Made by a program: the position numbers and the translations under genes. The notes under the pieces are model-generated. The model was given only the letters and a program-made list of their open reading frames with translations, was not told the origin of the DNA and did not search any database. Positions 23,986 through 63,181 of a stretch of 64,000 nt of DNA are shown one piece after another; the stretch's first letter is position 1; each line of letters begins with the position of its first letter. This DNA comes from a virus (lineage: Duplodnaviria > Caudoviricetes): IMG/VR virus record IMGVR_UViG_2841778323_000002, positions 13,536 to 77,535 of that record; one strand, written 5' to 3'.

Positions 23986-24582
23986 TTAATTAGTACTAGT
24001 ATATGAGTCTAATATTTCCATAAGCTCTTTGTTTTCTTTTTCTAACTTGTCGAGCTCTTCATCTCTGTAAGAGCAACATGTTTCTGGAGGTTTAAATATT
24101 TTTAATCCACCATGTCTATCCATAGGATAGAGGTTATGATGTCTATCTAGCCATACAATATAGAAAGTATTTCCTATTAAAAAACCATGAATACCACCTT
24201 TACTTTTACCTATACGTATCTGTCTACAATCGACTTGATCTAAAAAATCATCATCGAAGTTGAATTTATAATCAAGTTGATCCCAATCGTGAGGATGGCA
24301 TCTATAAGTTCCTTTCGTTAATGTTAAATCATTTCTAGTATAATTAGACACATTAGATAACATTTGAAACAGTTCAGGATACCATTTTTCACAAACTCCA
24401 CCTAAGTTGAAAGGTTCTGTTTTTAAATCTAAAAATCTAAAAGAAAACATTATCTTTTCTTTATTTCTATCTCTTAGGATTTGCATAGTTTCTTGATCTA
24501 TAGGAAAGTTTTTCTTTTTATCGGGTATATTAATCTTAGTAAATGTCTGTTTACCAAATTTGTTAGTTTTCTTCGGGTGCAT
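23986..24582 (-). CDS. Putative RelE-like RNase toxin paired with Panacea antitoxin
   Basis: FSFRFLD...IRI...IHGFL.GNTFYIVWLD.HH.LY motif; overlaps the antitoxin 3' end. Confidence 0.6.
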   Translation of the reverse strand: MHPKKTNKFGKQTFTKINIPDKKKNFPIDQETMQILRDRNKEKIMFSFRFLDLKTEPFNLGGVCEKWYPELFQMLSNVSNYTRNDLTLTKGTYRCHPHDWDQLDYKFNFDDDFLDQVDCRQIRIGKSKGGIHGFLIGNTFYIVWLDRHHNLYPMDRHGGLKIFKPPETCCSYRDEELDKLEKENKELMEILDSYTSTN

Positions 24583-25054
24583 ATATACTCCAATAATATT
24601 TTTTCATAAGTTCAGGGTCTATTTCCACATTGCATGGTTCCCACTCTTCATATCCAAGTCTAGCTTTAATCCAAGGATCTTCTGAATGAGTTAAAATTTC
24701 TAATTCATCACCATTAAAACCACCATAAGTATTAAATACAGTTTCTAAATGATCTATTATATCCTCATTTAATCCAGGAATATTTTTTATATTTAATGGT
24801 ATAAGATTTGCTCTAAAGTTTTTATATTTTGAATATAAGTCTCTAGACACTGGACCATGAACCCAAGCCTCGAAAGAAGAATTGATAAGAGGCTCTTTGT
24901 GTAGGGCTAAGTACCAAGCTTGAGCATAGTAACAAAGTTTTTGAAGTTTTTTATTTGTCATAGGCTCTTTGCTTAAGAAGTAATTAGCTATATCAAATAC
25001 ACTAAACATTTCTTTTTCCCCCTTGTTGTTAAATAAGTATGTAACCTTACCCAT
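24563..25054 (-). CDS. Panacea (DUF4065/SocA/GepA-like) antitoxin
   Basis: KLQKLCYYAQ, FEAWVHGPV and LTHSEDPW motifs. Confidence 0.85.
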   Translation of the reverse strand: MGKVTYLFNNKGEKEMFSVFDIANYFLSKEPMTNKKLQKLCYYAQAWYLALHKEPLINSSFEAWVHGPVSRDLYSKYKNFRANLIPLNIKNIPGLNEDIIDHLETVFNTYGGFNGDELEILTHSEDPWIKARLGYEEWEPCNVEIDPELMKKYYWSIYAPEEN

Positions 25055-27004: not shown

Positions 27005-27051
27005 TAAAACAAAAGTAAGATAGTATAAATATCTATCTTACTTTTGTTTTA
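27005..27051. terminator. 19-bp perfect hairpin, probable bidirectional terminator
   Basis: TAAAACAAAAGTAAGATAG-9nt-CTATCTTACTTTTGTTTTA. Confidence 0.7.
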
Positions 27052-27112
27052 TATAAATTAAAAAATATTAAAAAAAATGCTTACTTTGAGAAGAAATAAT
27101 GGATAAATTTAT

Positions 27113-27269
27113 TATATAAAACTAGACAAATTAATTCTAAGATTAAAACAGATTTTTATAAGAAGATAATAAGATTCAATTAAAAGTTTGAGCGTAATCT
27201 GCATCAAAAATAGCACTTAAGCAATTATTGATATCTCAAAATTTAAACTTAATTTATGTAGTTATATAT
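27113..27269 (+). ncRNA. Putative structured ncRNA, copy 1 (unassigned family)
   Basis: Homologous to 62870-63018; 5'/3' ends pair; shared AAGATTAAAACAGA and TAAAAGTTTGAGCGT.ATCTG. Confidence 0.6.
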
Positions 27270-27280
27270 ATAAATATTAA

Positions 27281-27315
27281 CTGTTATCATAAAACTGACT
27301 ATTGAATATCGGTTC
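27281..27315. other. Right attachment junction of prophage 1
   Basis: Host-like ABC SBP frame stops abruptly at ...VRTDIQ-TAG; sequence beyond it is non-coding phage-like DNA. Confidence 0.65.
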
Positions 27316-27856
27316 TAACGTTTACTTTATCGTTTTGAGTATCAGTTCCTATAGTTAGACCATTTTTTTTCATAACATACTCTAATGTCATTTCAGGAAC
27401 CCCACCTTTTCTACCACCTAAAACCTCTTTACCTTTTAAATCCTCAAAAGAAAAACTATCAGTATTTTCACGAGCAACTAAAAAGCTTCCATCTTTTTGA
27501 GTTAATTGCGCAAAATTTACTGCATAATTTGAATTCCCTTTATTATATACATAAATAGATGCTTCTGGTCCCATAAGTCCTATATCTGCTTCTCCAGAAA
27601 GAAGTGCAGCCATTGTTTTATCTGCTCCCTGAGTATTTATAAGGTCTAACTCAATGCCCTCTTCCTCAAAAAAACCTTGAGTTATAGCTGCATATTGTGG
27701 AGCATAAAATACTGAATGGGTTACCTCTGCAACAGTTAGCTTATTTAAATTTTTAGATTTAATACTTTGAGATTTAGGAGTACATCCAATGAGAAGTAAA
27801 GATAGGCTAGTAATTAAAGTTATTAATATTATTAATTTTTTTAGCAAAAAAATCAC
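27299..27856 (-). pseudogene. ytlA: 5' fragment of ABC transporter substrate-binding lipoprotein (NitT/TauT, YtlA-like), interrupted by prophage 1
   Basis: Lipobox LIGC; VAEVTHSVFYAPQY, GADKTM, NFAQLTQKDGSFLV and GGRKGGVP motifs; only 185 aa, whereas such proteins are ~330-340 aa. Confidence 0.8.
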
Positions 27857-28027
27857 CCCTTAAAATTAAAGATAATGTATATTATTAAAAAATAAATTGA
27901 TTGGTGATAAAACCATTTTAGATATTTGTAAAAATACTATAGTTGTCAGGAAAATGTTTGCTTTGTGTTGATTTTGGGTATAAAAAATATAAAATAAAAT
28001 TTAATATAACTTTAGGGAGGGGAAATT

Positions 28028-28840
28028 ATGAATTACAAATATCTTATATCCAATAAAAGGTCAGTAAGGAAATTTAAAAATCAAGAAATAAAAAAATCAG
28101 ATTTCAGAATAATAGAAGAATATATAAATATGTCTAAAAAACTTGTACCAGAAATAAGTACTGAAGTTAAAGTTTTTAATAAAGATAAATTATATCCAAA
28201 ACTTGATAAAATAGCAGGATATAATGGACATATGATAGAAGCACCAAACTATGTAATCATTTTATCTGATACAGATAAAGGATACATAGAAAATTCAGGA
28301 TATATAGGAGAAAACTTAACTCTAAAGGCCATGGACTTAGGAATCGACTCATGTTGGGTTACCTTTAAAGAGAGTTCGCTTATAAAAGAAAAGCTTGAAA
28401 TTTTATCAGATAAGGAAGTTACAGCAATTATTGCACTAGGTTATGGAGATACTGTAAAAACTAAATCAGCTACTGGTGATTCATCTAGATTAGGTGTAGA
28501 AAAGATCGTTTATCTAGATAAATGGGGAGAAAATGCAACCATAGAATTATTAGAAGAAAGAGGATTATTAGATGCATTTAGTTTTGCTAGAATGGCACCA
28601 TCTACATTAAATAGACAACCTTGGAGATTTATAATTGATGGAGGCAAAGTGATTCTTGCAGTAAGAAAAGATGAATTTGCAAGTGAGTATGAAGGTAAAG
28701 TTGATGTAGGGATAGTTATGCTATACTTTTCATTAATAATTGATACGACTATGTTTGATTTAAAATGGACTTTAGAAAACGGTAATAGAAATTATGACGT
28801 ACCAACAGATTATGAAATAATAGGATATTGTAATATATAA
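28028..28840 (+). CDS. Nitroreductase family protein (host)
   Basis: RSVRKF, LGIDSCWV and APSTLNRQPWRF motifs. Confidence 0.88.
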   Translation: MNYKYLISNKRSVRKFKNQEIKKSDFRIIEEYINMSKKLVPEISTEVKVFNKDKLYPKLDKIAGYNGHMIEAPNYVIILSDTDKGYIENSGYIGENLTLKAMDLGIDSCWVTFKESSLIKEKLEILSDKEVTAIIALGYGDTVKTKSATGDSSRLGVEKIVYLDKWGENATIELLEERGLLDAFSFARMAPSTLNRQPWRFIIDGGKVILAVRKDEFASEYEGKVDVGIVMLYFSLIIDTTMFDLKWTLENGNRNYDVPTDYEIIGYCNI

Positions 28841-28842
28841 AA

Positions 28843-28890
28843 AATAACTGAGTTCAAGCCTGTTTATAACAAACTTGAACTCAGTTATTT
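28843..28890. terminator. Bidirectional terminator
   Basis: AAATAACTGAGTTCAAG...CTTGAACTCAGTTATTT. Confidence 0.88.
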
Positions 28891-28907
28891 TGTTTTTATA
28901 TTAAATT

Positions 28908-29711
28908 TTATCTTTTACTTTTATAAATTTTTTCTGCTATATTTAAAACTTGATACATAATTAAAGCACAAAGGGCTAATACTATTACTCCCATCATTAC
29001 TAAATCTAATTTGAAAACTTGGCCACCATAAACTATTAAGTACCCAAGACCATATCTAGATACTAAGAATTCACCTACTATTACGCCAACCCAAGCCATA
29101 CCTATATTAATTTTAGTTAAATTTATTAAATTTCCTATGTTAGAAGGAAATATTAATTTTGTAAGAATTTGAAGTTTTGATGCTCCAAAACTTTTAAGCA
29201 TTTTGACTTTTTCCTCATCAACACTTATAAAATAATTATAGGCGGATAATATAGTAACAACAACAGATATAGTAATAGCTATAACTATTATTCCATTTAC
29301 ACCAGCTCCAGCCCAAACTATTAAAATTGGTGCTAATGCTGTTTTAGGAAGTGCATTTAGTACAACCAAAAATGGATCAAGTATTTTAGACAATCTTTCT
29401 GACCACCAAAGCATTATAGCTACTAATATTCCAAGAATTGTACCAACTGCTAATCCAACTATTGTCTCATAGCTAGATATTAATATATGCTTAAATAATT
29501 CTCCATTTTGAATATATTTTATAAAAAGATTGTAAATATCACTAGGTTTGCTAAATAGAAATACATCTATTATATTAAGTCTAGCAAGTAATTCCCAAAG
29601 AGCTATAAATCCAACCAATATAAATATTTGATAAAAAAAGATTAGATTCTTTTCTTTTTTTAGCGATTTTAAATATTGTTTATGACCTTGTGATACATTA
29701 TTTTGTTTCAC
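28908..29711 (-). CDS. ytlD: ABC transporter permease (NitT/TauT, YtlD-like)
   Basis: GTG start 29711 with RBS AAGGAG; LNALPKTALAP, EAA-like loop and GEFLVSRYGLGY motifs. Confidence 0.88.
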   Translation of the reverse strand: MKQNNVSQGHKQYLKSLKKEKNLIFFYQIFILVGFIALWELLARLNIIDVFLFSKPSDIYNLFIKYIQNGELFKHILISSYETIVGLAVGTILGILVAIMLWWSERLSKILDPFLVVLNALPKTALAPILIVWAGAGVNGIIVIAITISVVVTILSAYNYFISVDEEKVKMLKSFGASKLQILTKLIFPSNIGNLINLTKINIGMAWVGVIVGEFLVSRYGLGYLIVYGGQVFKLDLVMMGVIVLALCALIMYQVLNIAEKIYKSKR

Positions 29712-29889
29712 TAGAATCAATCTCCTTCCACAAGATATTAAAATAGTCTTTAAAATTTTCAGCACTTCTTGATATTATAGGAGTTCTAGTTTCTGATATT
29801 TTTAAATCTATATTATAGATACTTTTTATAGATGCAGGACGTTTGGATAAAACTGCGACCTTATCTGACATAGAAATAGCTTCAGATAA
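29698..29889 (-). pseudogene. ytlC: 3' fragment of ABC ATP-binding gene (YtlC-like), split by prophage 2
   Basis: Translates LSEAISMSDKVAVLSKRPASIK...YFNILWKEIDSSETK*, the segment right after the VTHD H-loop; overlaps the permease start. Confidence 0.85.
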
Positions 29890-29905
29890 ATGTATTAAAG
29901 TTCCT
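29880..29905. other. Left attachment junction of prophage 2
   Basis: ATPase homology ends at ~29890, 14 nt beyond the integrase stop codon. Confidence 0.75.
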
Positions 29906-31496
29906 ATTTACCTGAAGCTATAGTATTACTTGAATTGATACCTATTAGGTTTACCTTTATTGTGTCTGTATCAGAGTCCCATGTCATGTAATCTACTACT
30001 GTAGATAGTAACAGTCTCTTCTTATTGATATCAGAGGTATCAATTTCTTTATTGAATTTATTTAAATTATCTATAAGCATATTTATATTAATATCAACTT
30101 GATTATTTTCCATAGACATAGTATTTAAAGATTCTAATTGTGATTTTAAATTAGATAAGTCATTATTTAAAGATTCTAATTTATTGATTATAAAAGTAGA
30201 TGCAGAGCTTTCGGTAACCTTGGCTAGTTGCATAACTAAATTATCAATGTATGTTTCCTTTTCTTTAATTTGATTATTTATTGAGTTTATCTCAGTTTTT
30301 ATATTTTTACTATTCTTAGAGTTTTCTAACTTGCTATCTTTATAACTTGACATTATAGATTTAATACTTTTATTTTTTAATTCATCTATAACTTTAGATT
30401 CAGCCTTATCAGATCTGATATTTCTACAATCACAAGCTGATACTCCTAAAGATTTCTTTGTTCCACATATGTAATAATAGATAGTGCCGCTTTTAGAGTT
30501 TTTATAAGTAATTCTCATATTAGAGCCACACTTAGAACATTTTAAAAGACCTGATAATAATGCTTTACTTCCAGTTCCAGCTCTAGGAGCTTTAGCCTTA
30601 TTTGCATTAAGTAGCCTTTGTGCTTCAATCCATTTATCCGAGTCTATAACACCTTTATGTTTAGCAACAGCAGCTATAGGACTATCTGTATTTTTAGCAT
30701 AAGTTAGGATACCATGTATATTGTCTATATCTCCCATAACATCTATATTAGACTTTCTTAGATAATCAACTACACTTTTATCAGCTTTAACATATGCTGG
30801 ATTTTTTAGGATTAAAGATAAGGCACTAGGATCAAGGTTACCTCCACGAGTTCCTTTAATTCCATTCTCATACATATATTTATAAAGTTTTGAAAGTGAT
30901 CTAAGCTCTAAATATTTATCAAATATCAATTTAACAATTTCTATTGTATCTTCATCAACTTTAAGTTTATACATTTTTCTTTGGTTCATATTTTCATCAT
31001 AGTAGTTAATTTGAGTACTAATAAAACCATATGGAGGCATACCTCCTAGCCATCTTCCTGTTCTAGCTAACTCATACATATTATCTCTAACACGTTCAGC
31101 TATAGTTTCTCGTTCTAACTGAGCAAATACAGATGATATATACATCATAGCACGTCCCATAGGAGTACTAGTATCAAATTGTTCTTTAATTGATACAAAA
31201 GATATATTAAGCTTATTTAGATCTTCTATAAGAGTAGAGAAGTCAGAAACATTACGGGATATTCTATCTAATCTATAACATATTAAATAATCAAACTTTT
31301 TATCTTTAGCATCTTTAAGCATTTCTTTAAACTTTGGTCTATCCATAGATTTACCAGAGAAACCTTCATCTTCGTATACTAAAAATTCATTAACTCCTAG
31401 GTTCTTAGCATAGTCCATGCAAAGTTGTATTTGGTTTTCTATAGATTCACCTTTTCCAGTAAATTTTGATTTTCTTGAATAAATTGCTGCAATCAT
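29904..31496 (-). CDS. Large serine integrase
   Basis: YSRKS catalytic motif, DEGFSG, RLDRISRN, recombinase domain, CxxC...C zinc ribbon, coiled coil. Confidence 0.95.
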   Translation of the reverse strand: MIAAIYSRKSKFTGKGESIENQIQLCMDYAKNLGVNEFLVYEDEGFSGKSMDRPKFKEMLKDAKDKKFDYLICYRLDRISRNVSDFSTLIEDLNKLNISFVSIKEQFDTSTPMGRAMMYISSVFAQLERETIAERVRDNMYELARTGRWLGGMPPYGFISTQINYYDENMNQRKMYKLKVDEDTIEIVKLIFDKYLELRSLSKLYKYMYENGIKGTRGGNLDPSALSLILKNPAYVKADKSVVDYLRKSNIDVMGDIDNIHGILTYAKNTDSPIAAVAKHKGVIDSDKWIEAQRLLNANKAKAPRAGTGSKALLSGLLKCSKCGSNMRITYKNSKSGTIYYYICGTKKSLGVSACDCRNIRSDKAESKVIDELKNKSIKSIMSSYKDSKLENSKNSKNIKTEINSINNQIKEKETYIDNLVMQLAKVTESSASTFIINKLESLNNDLSNLKSQLESLNTMSMENNQVDININMLIDNLNKFNKEIDTSDINKKRLLLSTVVDYMTWDSDTDTIKVNLIGINSSNTIASGK

Positions 31497-37629: not shown

Positions 37630-37703
37630 TGAGGATATAGTTTAATGGCAAAATAGCTATTTATTTAGAAGATAAGAGGTTCGATTCCTTTTAACCCTCA
37701 CCA
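37630..37703 (+). pseudogene. Degenerate tRNA / tRNA-like element
   Basis: Acceptor TGAGG...CCTCA-CCA, D-loop TAGTTTAATGGCAAAA, T-arm GAGGTTCGATTCCTT; anticodon arm does not pair cleanly. Confidence 0.65.
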
Positions 37704-62596: not shown

Positions 62597-62743
62597 ATAA
62601 ATAGTAGTATTAATTATTAGAAATAGATATATTTAAATCTAAAAGATAACTAGTTCTTTATTTATAATAAATAGTAGTATTAATTATTAGAAATAGATAT
62701 ATTTAAATCTAAAAGATAACTAGTTCTTTATTTATAATAAATA
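62597..62743. repeat. Perfect 70-bp tandem duplication
   Basis: Unit ATAAATAGTAGTATT...TTTATA at 62597 and 62667, plus a partial third start. Confidence 0.9.
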
Positions 62744-62869
62744 TTGAATTTACTATAATTATATTAGAAGTTGATGTATATAATGAATATTTTTAAACGG
62801 ACACTATTTCTATTTAAAAATTTAAAAGAAAATGTTTACAATCGATAAAATAAGGTATAAATATATTAT

Positions 62870-63018
62870 AGAAAACTAAACAAATCAAATTTAAGATTAA
62901 AACAGAGCTCCCTAAGGAGATAAAAATACTCTATGTAAAAGTTTGAGCGTCATCTGAATTAACACTCTCACTTAATTATTGCCATTTCAAAATCTAGATT
63001 TGATTTATTTAGTTTTCT
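62870..63018 (+). ncRNA. Putative structured ncRNA, copy 2 (unassigned family)
   Basis: Long terminal stem followed by a T-run; conserved core shared with 27113-27269. Confidence 0.62.
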
Positions 63019-63181
63019 TTTTTATATTTATAGAATTTATAATTAAATTCAAATCCATTAAAATTGCAAATCTTTTATCTATAATATGTATCTTTACTTA
63101 TATACCTTGAATTTATTTACAATTTTTTCCAAATGTTATGTTATTATATAGTTATCAACTAAGTTATAAGGAGAATAAAAA

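What the first reader, a model, noticed from the sequence alone, without database searches (positions are those of the whole stretch)
27113..27269. Unassigned ~150-nt structured RNA-like element conserved in both prophages (copy 1; copy 2 at 62870-63018)
Two prophages with unrelated head modules carry a homologous non-coding block after the lysis module. Invariant blocks are AAGATTAAAACAGA, TAAAAGTTTGAGCGT.ATCTG, CACTTAA, AATTATTG and TCAAAAT. The terminal stem shows compensatory change (AAATTAA/TTAATTT vs AAATCAA/TTGATTT). There is an inner CAGA/TCTG helix, a small hairpin (CTCC-CTAA-GGAG vs TTTT-ATAA-GAAG) and a possible pseudoknot of TTTGAG with CTCAAA or TTCAAA. No shared ORF, and the flanking genes differ, so it looks like a stand-alone sRNA or ribozyme. 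I do not recognise it as a riboswitch, 6S, hammerhead or retron RNA. Copy 1 ends ~30 nt from the att junction, so it could also act across attP like lambda sib (inference).
Basis: partly seen in the sequence, partly recalled or inferred. Interest (0 to 1): 0.85.

Follow-up and report, generated by a model that had tools for sequence, protein, structure and literature searches.

The report
Small RNA gene shared by prophages and host
The two blocks are copies of an undescribed ~155-base non-coding RNA gene that some Clostridia carry once in their chromosome and their prophages carry after the lysis genes; its function is still unknown.

Summary
The two blocks are real homologues (76% identity, E 7.7e-37). 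They match no Rfam family.

I found 26 loci in all:
- 2 in the window
- 14 in viral contigs
- 3 in metagenome contigs
- 7 in four related species genomes

Three of the genomic copies sit in a syntenic, non-phage chromosomal slot (dUTPase - RNA - fluoride-riboswitch CLC channel). So this is a host RNA gene with prophage paralogues, not a phage-only element.

Features shared by the family:
- an upstream promoter-like block (GTTTA-N15-GGTATAAAT)
- a 24-27 bp helix pairing the 5' and 3' ends, usually followed by a U-run
- a small hairpin (P2) with a YUAA loop
- a variable central domain

P1 and P2 are 96.5% paired in 21 sequences, and 6 pairs changed on both sides. P2 is rewritten in L109 with its loop kept.

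The TTTGAG pseudoknot is not supported outside the window's own clade. No ORF is conserved. Tests for 6S RNA, Y RNA, type I toxin-antitoxin and MITE were not met, and a sib-like role fits only copy 1.

RNA-library contigs cover copy 2, which is only a weak hint of expression.

Verdict: a genuine new small-RNA family with a narrow host range. Its mechanism is inferred, not shown. Interest is moderate.

The parts
27079..27108 (+). Copy 1: conserved promoter-like block (GCTTA ... TGGATAAAT)
   Evidence: It aligns with the block GTTTA-N15-GGTATA(A/T)AT found upstream of every family member, while the spacer sequence differs. Promoter function is inferred, not shown.
27116..27144 (+). Copy 1: 5' arm of the end-to-end helix P1
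   Evidence: RNAalifold and pair counts.
27152..27167 (+). Copy 1: hairpin P2 (AUUUUU-AUAA-GAAGAU)
   Evidence: Pair counts. Compared with copy 2 it changes C-G to U-A and C-G to U-G.
27168..27239 (+). Copy 1: variable central domain
   Evidence: It aligns within the window's clade but is replaced in the second clade and partly deleted in L081. Its fold in this clade is not settled.
27240..27267 (+). Copy 1: 3' arm of P1. There is no clear U-run, and the prophage end / host junction follows within about 30 nt.
   Evidence: The truncated host gene ends at 27299.
62834..62862 (+). Copy 2: conserved promoter-like block GTTTA-N15-GGTATAAAT
62870..62898 (+). Copy 2: 5' arm of P1
62906..62921 (+). 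Copy 2: hairpin P2 (CUCC-CUAA-GGAG core)
62922..62990 (+). Copy 2: variable central domain
62991..63023 (+). Copy 2: 3' arm of P1 followed by the U-run (CUUUUUU, 63017-63023)
   Evidence: In the 20-row alignment, 17 rows end the arm in GTTTTCTTTTT; the three without are copy 1, L013 and L035. L109 also has it.
62781..63006 (.). Stretch covered by short contigs of two RNA libraries from different studies (226 nt at 62781-63006; 187 nt at 62792-62978)
   Evidence: The contigs give no strand and no level. They start about 85 nt upstream of P1.

Best explanation
Each block is a small non-coding RNA gene of about 155-160 nt, read on the + strand as its own transcription unit. It belongs to an undescribed family with a narrow range: four species of one Clostridia genus and their prophages.

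Anatomy:
- The RNA is closed by a 24-27 bp helix between its 5' and 3' ends (P1). In most members a U-run follows P1, so P1 also looks like the terminator.
- Inside sit a short A-rich joiner, a hairpin P2 with a YUAA loop whose 3' arm reads AAGGAGA, and a variable central hairpin domain.

Distribution:
- Hosts carry one chromosomal copy, between a dUTPase gene and a fluoride-riboswitch CLC channel gene.
- Temperate phages carry paralogues in the accessory-gene slot after the lysis genes, sometimes right at the prophage end.

Most likely mode of action (inferred):
- It is a stable trans-acting RNA.
- The constant part (P1, the joiner and P2) is a scaffold that seals both ends against exonucleases and is recognised by a host protein or RNase III.
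- The central domain carries the specificity.
- A prophage copy therefore adds to, or competes with, the host RNA in lysogens.

Shown: homology, non-coding nature, conserved helices, two kinds of genomic context.
Inferred: promoter use, strand, trans action, scaffold role.
For: Homology and family size:
- The two copies match at 76% identity, E 7.7e-37.
- There are 26 loci.

Not a known family:
- 0 Rfam matches at the element, even at E up to 10.

Structure:
- In 21 distinct sequences, P1 and P2 are 96.5% paired.
- 6 pairs changed on both sides, and 0 of 500 shuffles reach that number. Slid controls pair at 29-53%.
- In L109, P2 is rewritten (UAGCCCCC/GGGGGUUA instead of AUCUCC/GGAGAU) with the loop CUAA kept. 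That RNA folds at z -8.7.
- In the second clade the central hairpin shows CG/UA/UG and GC/AU exchanges.

Strand:
- A promoter-like block with a constant 15-nt spacing but a variable spacer sequence precedes the members of both clades; copy 1, L013 and L035 have a longer spacing and L109 lacks the block.
- In the 20-row alignment 17 rows carry a + strand U-run; L109 has one too.
- There are 16 G-U cells against 5 A-C cells in P1 and P2.

Non-coding:
- No ORF with a ribosome-binding site is shared. Of 14 members tested, 10 have none.

Context:
- L080, L084 and L081 are syntenic and chromosomal: dUTPase, then the RNA, then a convergent CLC gene with a fluoride riboswitch. The surrounding genes encode transporters, oxidoreductases and regulators.
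- Four related species have the dUTPase gene followed only by a plain terminator.
- Prophage copies lie about 150 nt after Amidase_3 or Amidase_2 lysins, or among accessory genes.

Expression hint:
- In two RNA libraries from different studies, the only contigs on a 1.2-kb stretch are short ones that cover copy 2.
Against: - No direct proof of a transcript. The RNA-library data are contigs with no strand and a depth of about 4-5, and DNA carry-over is not excluded.
- Those contigs start at 62781 and 62792, about 75-85 nt upstream of the start site implied by the conserved block. Either another promoter (TTTATA-17-TATAAT at 62731-62759) is used, or the block is not the promoter.
- A third RNA run's 1197-nt contig runs through the element and about 1 kb beyond it. 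This fits read-through or an antisense mRNA.
- The minus strand folds as well or better.
- A conserved C opposite A inside P1 (17 of 20 sequences) would be a G-U pair on the minus strand.
- Most P1 pairs never vary. The sequences come from a few close lineages, so relatedness inflates the shuffle statistics.
- P1 arm sequences are conserved beyond what pairing needs. This also fits a DNA-level or protein-binding site.
- Copy 1, L013 and L035 lack a U-run.
- L081 has lost 24 nt of the interior and L122 is decayed, so the interior is not strictly required.
- No target stands out among 138 gene starts of the record when compared with shuffled RNAs.
Confidence: 0.55

Rival explanations
1. It is mainly a bidirectional transcription terminator or insulator. 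A long AT-rich hairpin with flanking T/A runs stops convergent transcription at gene-cassette borders and prophage ends. The interior is a passenger and the RNA has no role of its own.
For: - P1 followed by a U-run is the most conserved part, and the interior can be deleted (L081) or decay (L122).
- In many contexts a convergent gene ends at or within about 150 nt of the 3' arm. Examples are the CLC gene in the chromosome, the truncated host gene at copy 1, and the 65-76-aa and 173-184-aa ORFs after the common prophage type.
- In related species the same chromosomal slot holds a plain terminator.
Against: - A terminator does not need a 100-nt interior.
- It does not explain a conserved hairpin P2 with a fixed loop that is kept through complete rewriting of its stem.
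- It does not explain a conserved upstream promoter-like block with fixed spacing.
- Copy 2, L079, L082 and L083 have no convergent gene.
- The simple terminator scan finds none here, because the stem has too few G-C pairs and the loop is far too long.
Confidence: 0.13
2. It is a cis-acting antisense or RNase III control element for transcripts that cross it. This includes a lambda-sib-like site that destabilises integrase or other read-through mRNA once the prophage ends are joined.
For: - P1 is a long duplex of 24-27 bp, which is RNase III substrate size (established knowledge; not tested here), and it forms on either strand.
- Copy 1 and L013 lie within about 30 nt of the prophage/host junction.
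- In L109 a strong opposite-strand promoter (TTGACT-17-TATAAT with a palindrome in the spacer) drives a transcript that crosses the whole element before the next gene.
- One RNA-library contig runs through the element.
Against: - Copy 2 and the common prophage type are not at a junction.
- The chromosomal copies have no phage context.
- Every copy keeps the + strand promoter-like block.
- The L109 arrangement was seen in 1 of 26 loci.
Confidence: 0.12
3. It is a miniature inverted-repeat mobile element or another decayed mobile DNA remnant. The 'helix' is a pair of terminal inverted repeats recognised by a transposase.
For: - There are near-perfect 27-nt inverted repeats whose sequence is conserved more than pairing needs.
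- The interior varies and includes a deletion derivative.
- There are 1-3 copies per genome in different contexts.
Against: - Conservation continues about 60 nt beyond the left repeat, with promoter-like spacing, and stops at the U-run.
- I saw no target-site duplication in the flanks printed.
- Copy number is low, and the position after the lysin gene recurs in prophages.
- G-U pairs outnumber A-C oppositions 16 to 5, as expected for RNA and not for DNA repeats.
- P2 covaries.
Confidence: 0.05
4. It encodes a small protein, or it is one half of a type I toxin-antitoxin pair.
For: - A minus-strand 30-34-aa ORF exists in copy 1 and in the common prophage type.
- L109 has a 34-aa opposite-strand ORF with a GGAGG ribosome-binding site and its own promoter.
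- The three chromosomal copies have a TTG ORF after the AAGGAGA of P2.
Against: - These are three different ORFs in different places and frames.
- The first is broken in copy 2 and absent in L035.
- The chromosomal ORFs are 36, 18 and 30 aa long, and L081 reads a different peptide.
- 10 of 14 members have no ORF of at least 18 aa with a ribosome-binding site.
- The L109 small ORFs match no Pfam family.
Confidence: 0.04

Closest known systems
Prophage-encoded trans-acting small RNAs of enterobacteria: DicF of the Qin prophage (PMC5069750, abstract seen) and the anti-sRNAs AsxR/AgvB of EHEC prophages (PMC4104026, abstract seen)
   Same: - A short non-coding unit carried among accessory genes of a temperate phage, separate from the structural operons.
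- It is expected to act on host regulation in lysogens.
- The idea of a phage RNA that interferes with a host RNA pathway.
   Different: - No sequence or Rfam relation.
- The host is a Clostridia genus. A 2025 review of phage small RNAs has no occurrence of 'Clostridi', 'Gram-positive' or 'Bacillus' (PMC12197685, term search only).
- This RNA has a homologous chromosomal gene in the host.
- It is closed by a 24-27 bp end-to-end helix.
- No target or chaperone is known.
6S RNA (Rfam RF00013)
   Same: - Similar size class.
- A rod-like RNA whose 5' and 3' ends pair in a long closing stem around a partly open interior.
- An independent gene.
   Different: - No match to RF00013 at E up to 10.
- All four host genomes have one canonical 6S gene elsewhere at 87-93 bits.
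- The interior is a multi-hairpin junction, not a central bubble followed by a terminal stem.
Bacterial Y RNAs (Ro60-bound; recalled from the literature)
   Same: - A conserved stem formed by the 5' and 3' ends with a variable second module.
- Y RNAs also occur in phages (recalled).
   Different: - No Ro60/TROVE protein in 0 of 4 host genomes, while the control genomes rang.
- No Rfam match.
Lambda sib retroregulation site (recalled textbook knowledge)
   Same: - A long hairpin of RNase III size beside the attachment site, at the prophage end opposite to the integrase. This applies to copy 1 and L013 only.
   Different: - It has its own conserved promoter-like block.
- It has a structured 100-nt interior.
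- It occurs away from att sites and in the host chromosome.
phi29 packaging RNA (pRNA; recalled; an Rfam family exists)
   Same: - A phage RNA of similar size with a 5'/3' helix and a multi-helix junction.
   Different: - No Rfam match.
- These prophages have tail tape-measure-type tails and serine integrases, unlike phi29-type phages.
- A chromosomal copy makes a packaging role unlikely.

Membership tests
Any Rfam 15 family | Covariance-model match at or near the gathering score | tested here: not met
   - Whole window at gathering score: only a tRNA at 37631-37699.
- Both copies with flanks at E up to 10: only a chance SurA terminator match outside the element.
- Seven genomic loci at E up to 5: nothing on the element apart from a chance CRISPR-DR40 match overlapping its first 15 bases in L080 (E 3.4, 26.5 bits against a 42-bit gathering score).
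6S RNA | Match to RF00013, and being the genome's 6S gene | tested here: not met
   No RF00013 match at the element. A canonical 6S gene is found elsewhere in 4 of 4 host genomes.
Y RNA / Ro60 system | A Ro60 (TROVE domain) protein encoded in the genome | tested here: not met
   PF05731 was found in 0 of 4 genomes. The control rang in Deinococcus and Bacteroides.
Type I toxin-antitoxin | A conserved small ORF overlapped by, or adjacent to, the antisense RNA | tested here: not met
   No ORF is shared. 10 of 14 members have no ORF of at least 18 aa with a ribosome-binding site, and the others have three unrelated ORFs.
MITE | Homology confined between terminal inverted repeats, target-site duplications, and many dispersed copies | tested here: not met
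   - Homology extends about 60 nt beyond the left repeat.
- No duplication was seen in the flanks (by eye).
- There are 1-3 copies per genome.
Lambda-sib-type retroregulator | Located across the attachment site from the integrase, and read only as the tail of a longer mRNA | tested here: not met
   - Only copy 1 and L013 abut a junction.
- Copy 2, the copies that directly follow a lysin gene and the chromosomal copies do not.
- All carry the promoter-like block.
Lambda-sib-type retroregulator | Cleavage of the hairpin by RNase III | not testable with these tools
   P1 has the length of an RNase III substrate. Cleavage needs an experiment.
Cis-regulatory leader / riboswitch | A regulated gene directly downstream on the same strand in most members | tested here: not met
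   The chromosomal copies, copy 1 and the common prophage type are followed by a convergent gene or a junction.
Prophage-encoded trans-acting small RNA (kind, not a sequence family) | A non-coding, self-contained unit inside a prophage | tested here: met
   A promoter-like block and a U-run bound the conserved stretch, and there is no shared ORF. It lies after the lysis genes in prophages.
Prophage-encoded trans-acting small RNA (kind, not a sequence family) | A discrete transcript in lysogens | tested here: inconclusive
   Short contigs of two RNA libraries cover copy 2 and nothing else on the 1.2 kb laid. They give no strand, the depth is low, and the 5' edge lies upstream of the predicted start.
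Prophage-encoded trans-acting small RNA (kind, not a sequence family) | An identifiable base-pairing target | tested here: inconclusive
   Duplex scan against 138 gene starts of the record: the best energies were -27.8 and -32.4 kcal/mol. These fall within the range of shuffled RNAs, whose best values reached -30.3 and -34.0. Host genomes were not scanned.

The most novel reading that the evidence does not exclude
Temperate phages of this genus carry a decoy version of a host structural RNA. The decoy keeps the host RNA's protein-binding scaffold (the end-to-end helix, the A-rich joiner and the YUAA hairpin) but swaps the central effector domain. This lets the prophage capture or re-aim a host ribonucleoprotein in lysogens. 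The action might take place in the forespore, because the shared upstream block (GTTTA-15-GG...) has the conserved G before the -10 box that a paper on C. difficile reports for sigma-F promoters (PMC3789822, passages seen; the logo and tables were not seen). That would be a protein-level analogue of the anti-sRNA sponges, and the first phage-host RNA mimicry system described in Clostridia.
Probability: 0.1. Interest if true: 0.75.

Novelty: new member of a known kind. Interest (0 to 1): 0.45.

Why it matters
The phage-encoded small RNAs I found cited are from enterobacteria. The one recent review I searched never mentions Clostridia or Gram-positive hosts (term search only).

A family that exists both as a host chromosomal gene and as prophage paralogues in a fixed slot after the lysis genes offers a clean system. 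It could show how phages acquire host regulatory RNAs, or donate them, and whether a prophage copy reinforces or subverts the host copy.

The family is small and narrow in range, and its function is unknown. Its present value is as a well-delimited candidate for Rfam and for a Northern blot or deletion study. It does not answer an open question.

Tried and rejected
Searches that found nothing useful:
- BLAST of both copies against 50,697 cultured phage records. Copy 1 gave 24 records, all Staphylococcus phages, matching 23% of the query inside exonuclease genes at E 5e-3, which I read as chance. Copy 2 gave none.
- Core-motif scan of species genomes. 16 stretches were found, all unrelated on inspection. 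The tool may leave out the window's own or near genomes.
- Metagenome scan. 22 stretches were found. 3 were true and all 3 were near-identical to known types.
- Further viral scans. Pattern 3 gave 20 stretches, of which 10 were chance. Pattern 4 gave 12, of which 2 were new and both chance. Pattern 5 gave 1, with no model match. Pattern 6 gave 34, of which 24 were new and 2 real: L109, and the decayed L122.
- Model R2 over 151 genomes sampled from the order. Only the two already known genomes matched.
- In the genus, 4 of 11 genomes have full matches. A fifth 59-nt match (G446) is a plain hairpin.

Tests that were uninformative or negative:
- Sigma-70 and terminator consensus scans were uninformative in this AT-rich DNA. 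They found 10 sites against 7.0 expected and 3 against 5.0 expected, and no terminators.
- Folding energy does not tell the strands apart.
- The target scan was negative.
- The 162-aa ORF after L082 is not a dUTPase relative.
- The central-domain fold in the window's own clade stays unsettled.
- Sigma-F likeness could not be checked letter by letter. The consensus in PMC3789822 is in a figure and in supplementary tables that I could not see.
- A search for CsfG gave no usable paper. A search for sordellii + small RNA + prophage gave 4 papers, none about such an RNA (listing and abstracts only).
- Parts of the 1.2-kb stretch without RNA-contig cover are not used as evidence.
- The scan's earlier notes held no look-alike finding on other DNA that bears on this.

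Full report
**What is there**

The window is part of a 77.5-kb provirus record. The two blocks lie at 27113-27272 and 62867-63023, both on the + strand. They align at 76% identity over about 200 bases (E 7.7e-37). They are the only two full copies in the record.

**Context in the window**

Copy 1:
- It lies 4.4 kb after the Amidase_3 lysin of the first prophage, beyond a set of accessory genes. These include a SocA/Panacea-domain protein and a ferritin-like protein that matches a phage 'DNA binding protein' family.
- It ends about 30 nt before a truncated host NMT1-type binding-protein gene.

Copy 2:
- It lies 560 nt after the Amidase_2 lysin of the second prophage.
- It precedes a bPH_3/SHOCT protein gene.

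**Known families**

- Rfam 15 gives nothing at either copy, at gathering scores or at E up to 10.
- It also gives nothing real on the seven genomic homologues; the only overlap is a chance CRISPR-DR40 match at E 3.4 touching the first 15 bases of the element in L080.
- Cultured phage records hold no homologue.

**The family**

Motif scans of viral contigs found 12 close homologues. All are in provirus records of isolate genomes. A later scan added a divergent member (L109) and a decayed one (L122). Metagenome contigs added 3 near-identical copies.

To reach host genomes I placed the host by its nitroreductase gene:
- G445 belongs to a family of 112 species representatives within the class Clostridia. 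The class follows from the titled Oliverpabstia genome that I used as a starting point.

A covariance model built from 13 sequences found 7 more copies in 4 of these 112 genomes. A second model found the same 4 among the 11 genomes of the genus, and nothing new in 151 genomes sampled from the order. The family is real, but its range is narrow.

**Two kinds of home**

Chromosomal:
- L080, L084 and L081 come from three species and are syntenic. The order is an oxidoreductase or methyltransferase gene, a dUTPase gene, the RNA, then a convergent CLC channel gene. In L080 and L084 a fluoride riboswitch precedes the CLC gene.
- Eighteen kilobases around the G445 copy encode ABC and MFS transporters, oxidoreductases, a MerR regulator and a LytTR two-component system. 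No phage genes are present.
- Four further species of the genus have the dUTPase gene (86-91% identity), but only a plain terminator follows it. The RNA gene was therefore gained or lost at this slot within the genus.

Prophage:
- The other genomic copies and all viral copies lie in prophage contexts.
- Most often they sit about 150 nt after an Amidase_3/SH3 lysin. Otherwise they lie among accessory genes that match phage protein families.

**Anatomy**

*Upstream block.* Members of both clades are preceded by G(T/C)TTA, then 15 nt, then GGTATA(A/T)AT; copy 1, L013 and L035 have a slightly longer spacing and TGGATAAAT, and L109 lacks this block. The spacer differs freely between members. That pattern is what a promoter shows.

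*P1.* The 5' and 3' ends pair over 24-27 bp. In the 20-row alignment 17 rows end in GTTTTCTTTTT, so P1 looks like the terminator; L109 ends the same way.

*P2.* After an A-rich joiner comes hairpin P2, with loop YUAA. Its 3' arm reads AAGGAGA.

*Pair counts.* On 21 distinct sequences aligned to the model, the counts are as follows:
- P1 and P2 are 96.5% paired.
- 6 pairs changed on both sides. 0 of 500 shuffles reach this.
- Slid controls pair at 29-53%.

This alignment is fitted to the structure. The structure-blind MAFFT alignment of 20 sequences gives 96.2% paired and 4 such pairs.

*Best single piece of evidence.* In L109 the P2 stem is rewritten from AUCUCC/GGAGAU to UAGCCCCC/GGGGGUUA while the loop CUAA stays. 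The whole L109 RNA folds at z -8.7.

*Central domain.* It varies between clades.
- In the second clade it is an extended hairpin with exchanges such as CG/UA/UG and GC/AU.
- In L081 24 nt of it are deleted, leaving a short hairpin.
- In the window's own clade I could not settle its fold.

The pseudoknot has only wobble-compatible variants in one clade and no counterpart in the other.

**Strand and coding**

For the + strand:
- the upstream block
- the U-run
- 16 G-U cells against 5 A-C cells in P1 and P2

Against the + strand:
- The minus strand folds as well or better.
- A conserved C opposite A inside P1 would be a G-U pair on the other strand.

No reading frame is shared:
- A minus-strand 30-34-aa ORF seen in two types is broken in copy 2 and absent in L035.
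- The chromosomal copies have TTG ORFs of 36, 18 and 30 aa, with differing peptides.
- L109 alone has a 34-aa opposite-strand ORF with a strong ribosome-binding site.
- 10 of the 14 members tested have no ORF with a ribosome-binding site.

**Expression**

Of the 12 public runs that hold part of copy 2's neighbourhood, 6 are RNA libraries. I laid four of them on 1.2 kb.
- Two runs, from different studies, each give a single short contig: 226 nt at 62781-63006 and 187 nt at 62792-62978. They give nothing on the rest of the stretch.
- A third run gives a 1197-nt contig of the common prophage type. It runs through the element and beyond.
- A fourth run covers only the downstream gene.

Contigs show neither strand nor level, and the depths are about 4-5, so this is a weak hint of a discrete abundant RNA.

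The contigs begin about 75-85 nt upstream of the start implied by the conserved block. A sigma-70-like site at 62731-62759 could explain that for copy 2. The true 5' end is therefore open.

**What it most likely does**

The constant part (P1, the joiner, P2) is conserved in sequence beyond what pairing needs, while the central domain drifts. That is the pattern of a scaffold recognised by a protein or nuclease, joined to a variable functional module.

Pairing of both ends would shield the RNA from exonucleases, and a duplex of this length is the size that RNase III cuts. Both points come from established knowledge and were not tested here.

I therefore read it as a stable trans-acting RNA of the host. 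Prophage paralogues add to it or compete with it in lysogens. The position of copy 1 at the very end of its prophage fits capture of a host gene by imprecise excision, but the direction of transfer is not resolved.

I give 0.55 to this whole reading. The narrower claim that it is a genuine non-coding RNA gene family deserves more.

**Rivals**

- A pure bidirectional terminator or insulator (0.13) explains P1 and the frequent convergent genes. It does not explain P2, the interior or the upstream block.
- A cis-antisense or sib-like RNase III site (0.12) fits copy 1 and the unusual L109 arrangement, but not the other contexts.
- A MITE (0.05) is contradicted by homology outside the repeats, low copy number and G-U pairs.
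- A small protein or type I toxin-antitoxin pair (0.04) lacks a shared frame.

**Comparison with known systems**

- It works most like the prophage-encoded small RNAs of enterobacteria (DicF; AsxR/AgvB), but it is unrelated in sequence and has a host paralogue.
- It is not 6S RNA. Canonical 6S genes exist elsewhere in all four hosts.
- It is not a Y RNA. No Ro60 gene was found in 0 of 4 hosts.
- It is not a pRNA.
- It is not a general sib analogue.

**Verdict**

This is a real, previously uncatalogued small-RNA family of narrow range, found both as a host gene and as prophage cargo. It is a new member of a known kind. It is moderately interesting and experimentally easy to settle.

Noticed in passing
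window 62597-62743: A perfect 70-bp tandem duplication (2.1 copies, 100% match) lies between the prophage-2 lysin and copy 2. A sigma-70-like site (62731-62759) overlaps its end, and the RNA-library contigs start just downstream.
   Followed up: partly
window 27011-27054: A strong AT-rich hairpin with A/T runs on both sides lies between the ferritin-like gene and copy 1. It looks like a bidirectional terminator. It gave a chance match to the terminator part of the SurA model.
   Followed up: no
window 23986-25054 (- strand): A SocA/Panacea-domain protein (163 aa) overlaps the end of a 198-aa ORF of unknown function. This may be a toxin-antitoxin pair among the accessory genes of prophage 1.
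   Followed up: no
L109 1303-2094: On the strand opposite to the RNA lies a near-consensus promoter (TTGACT-17-TATAAT) with a palindrome (ATTGCA-C-TGCAAT) in its spacer. It drives a 34-aa ORF that overlaps the RNA gene, followed by a 74-aa ORF. A 62-aa ORF upstream looks similar to the 74-aa one by eye. None of them has a Pfam match.
   Followed up: partly
L084 3037-3098 and L080 3092-3153: Fluoride riboswitches (55-59 bits) precede the CLC channel gene that converges on the chromosomal RNA copy. This is the known pairing of a fluoride riboswitch with a fluoride channel.
   Followed up: no
L082 32-76: A PreQ1 riboswitch match (40.6 bits, just over the gathering score) lies in a prophage-like neighbourhood.
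   Followed up: no
L122 13154-13291: A decayed copy of the RNA gene (42 bits). The promoter-like block and the 3' arm are kept, but the 5' arm and P2 are degraded. Prophage copies can therefore become pseudogenes.
   Followed up: partly
window 27299-31496: A short host segment separates the two prophages. It holds the binding-protein fragment, a nitroreductase and an ABC permease. The second prophage starts with a serine recombinase at 29904-31496 on the - strand.
   Followed up: partly
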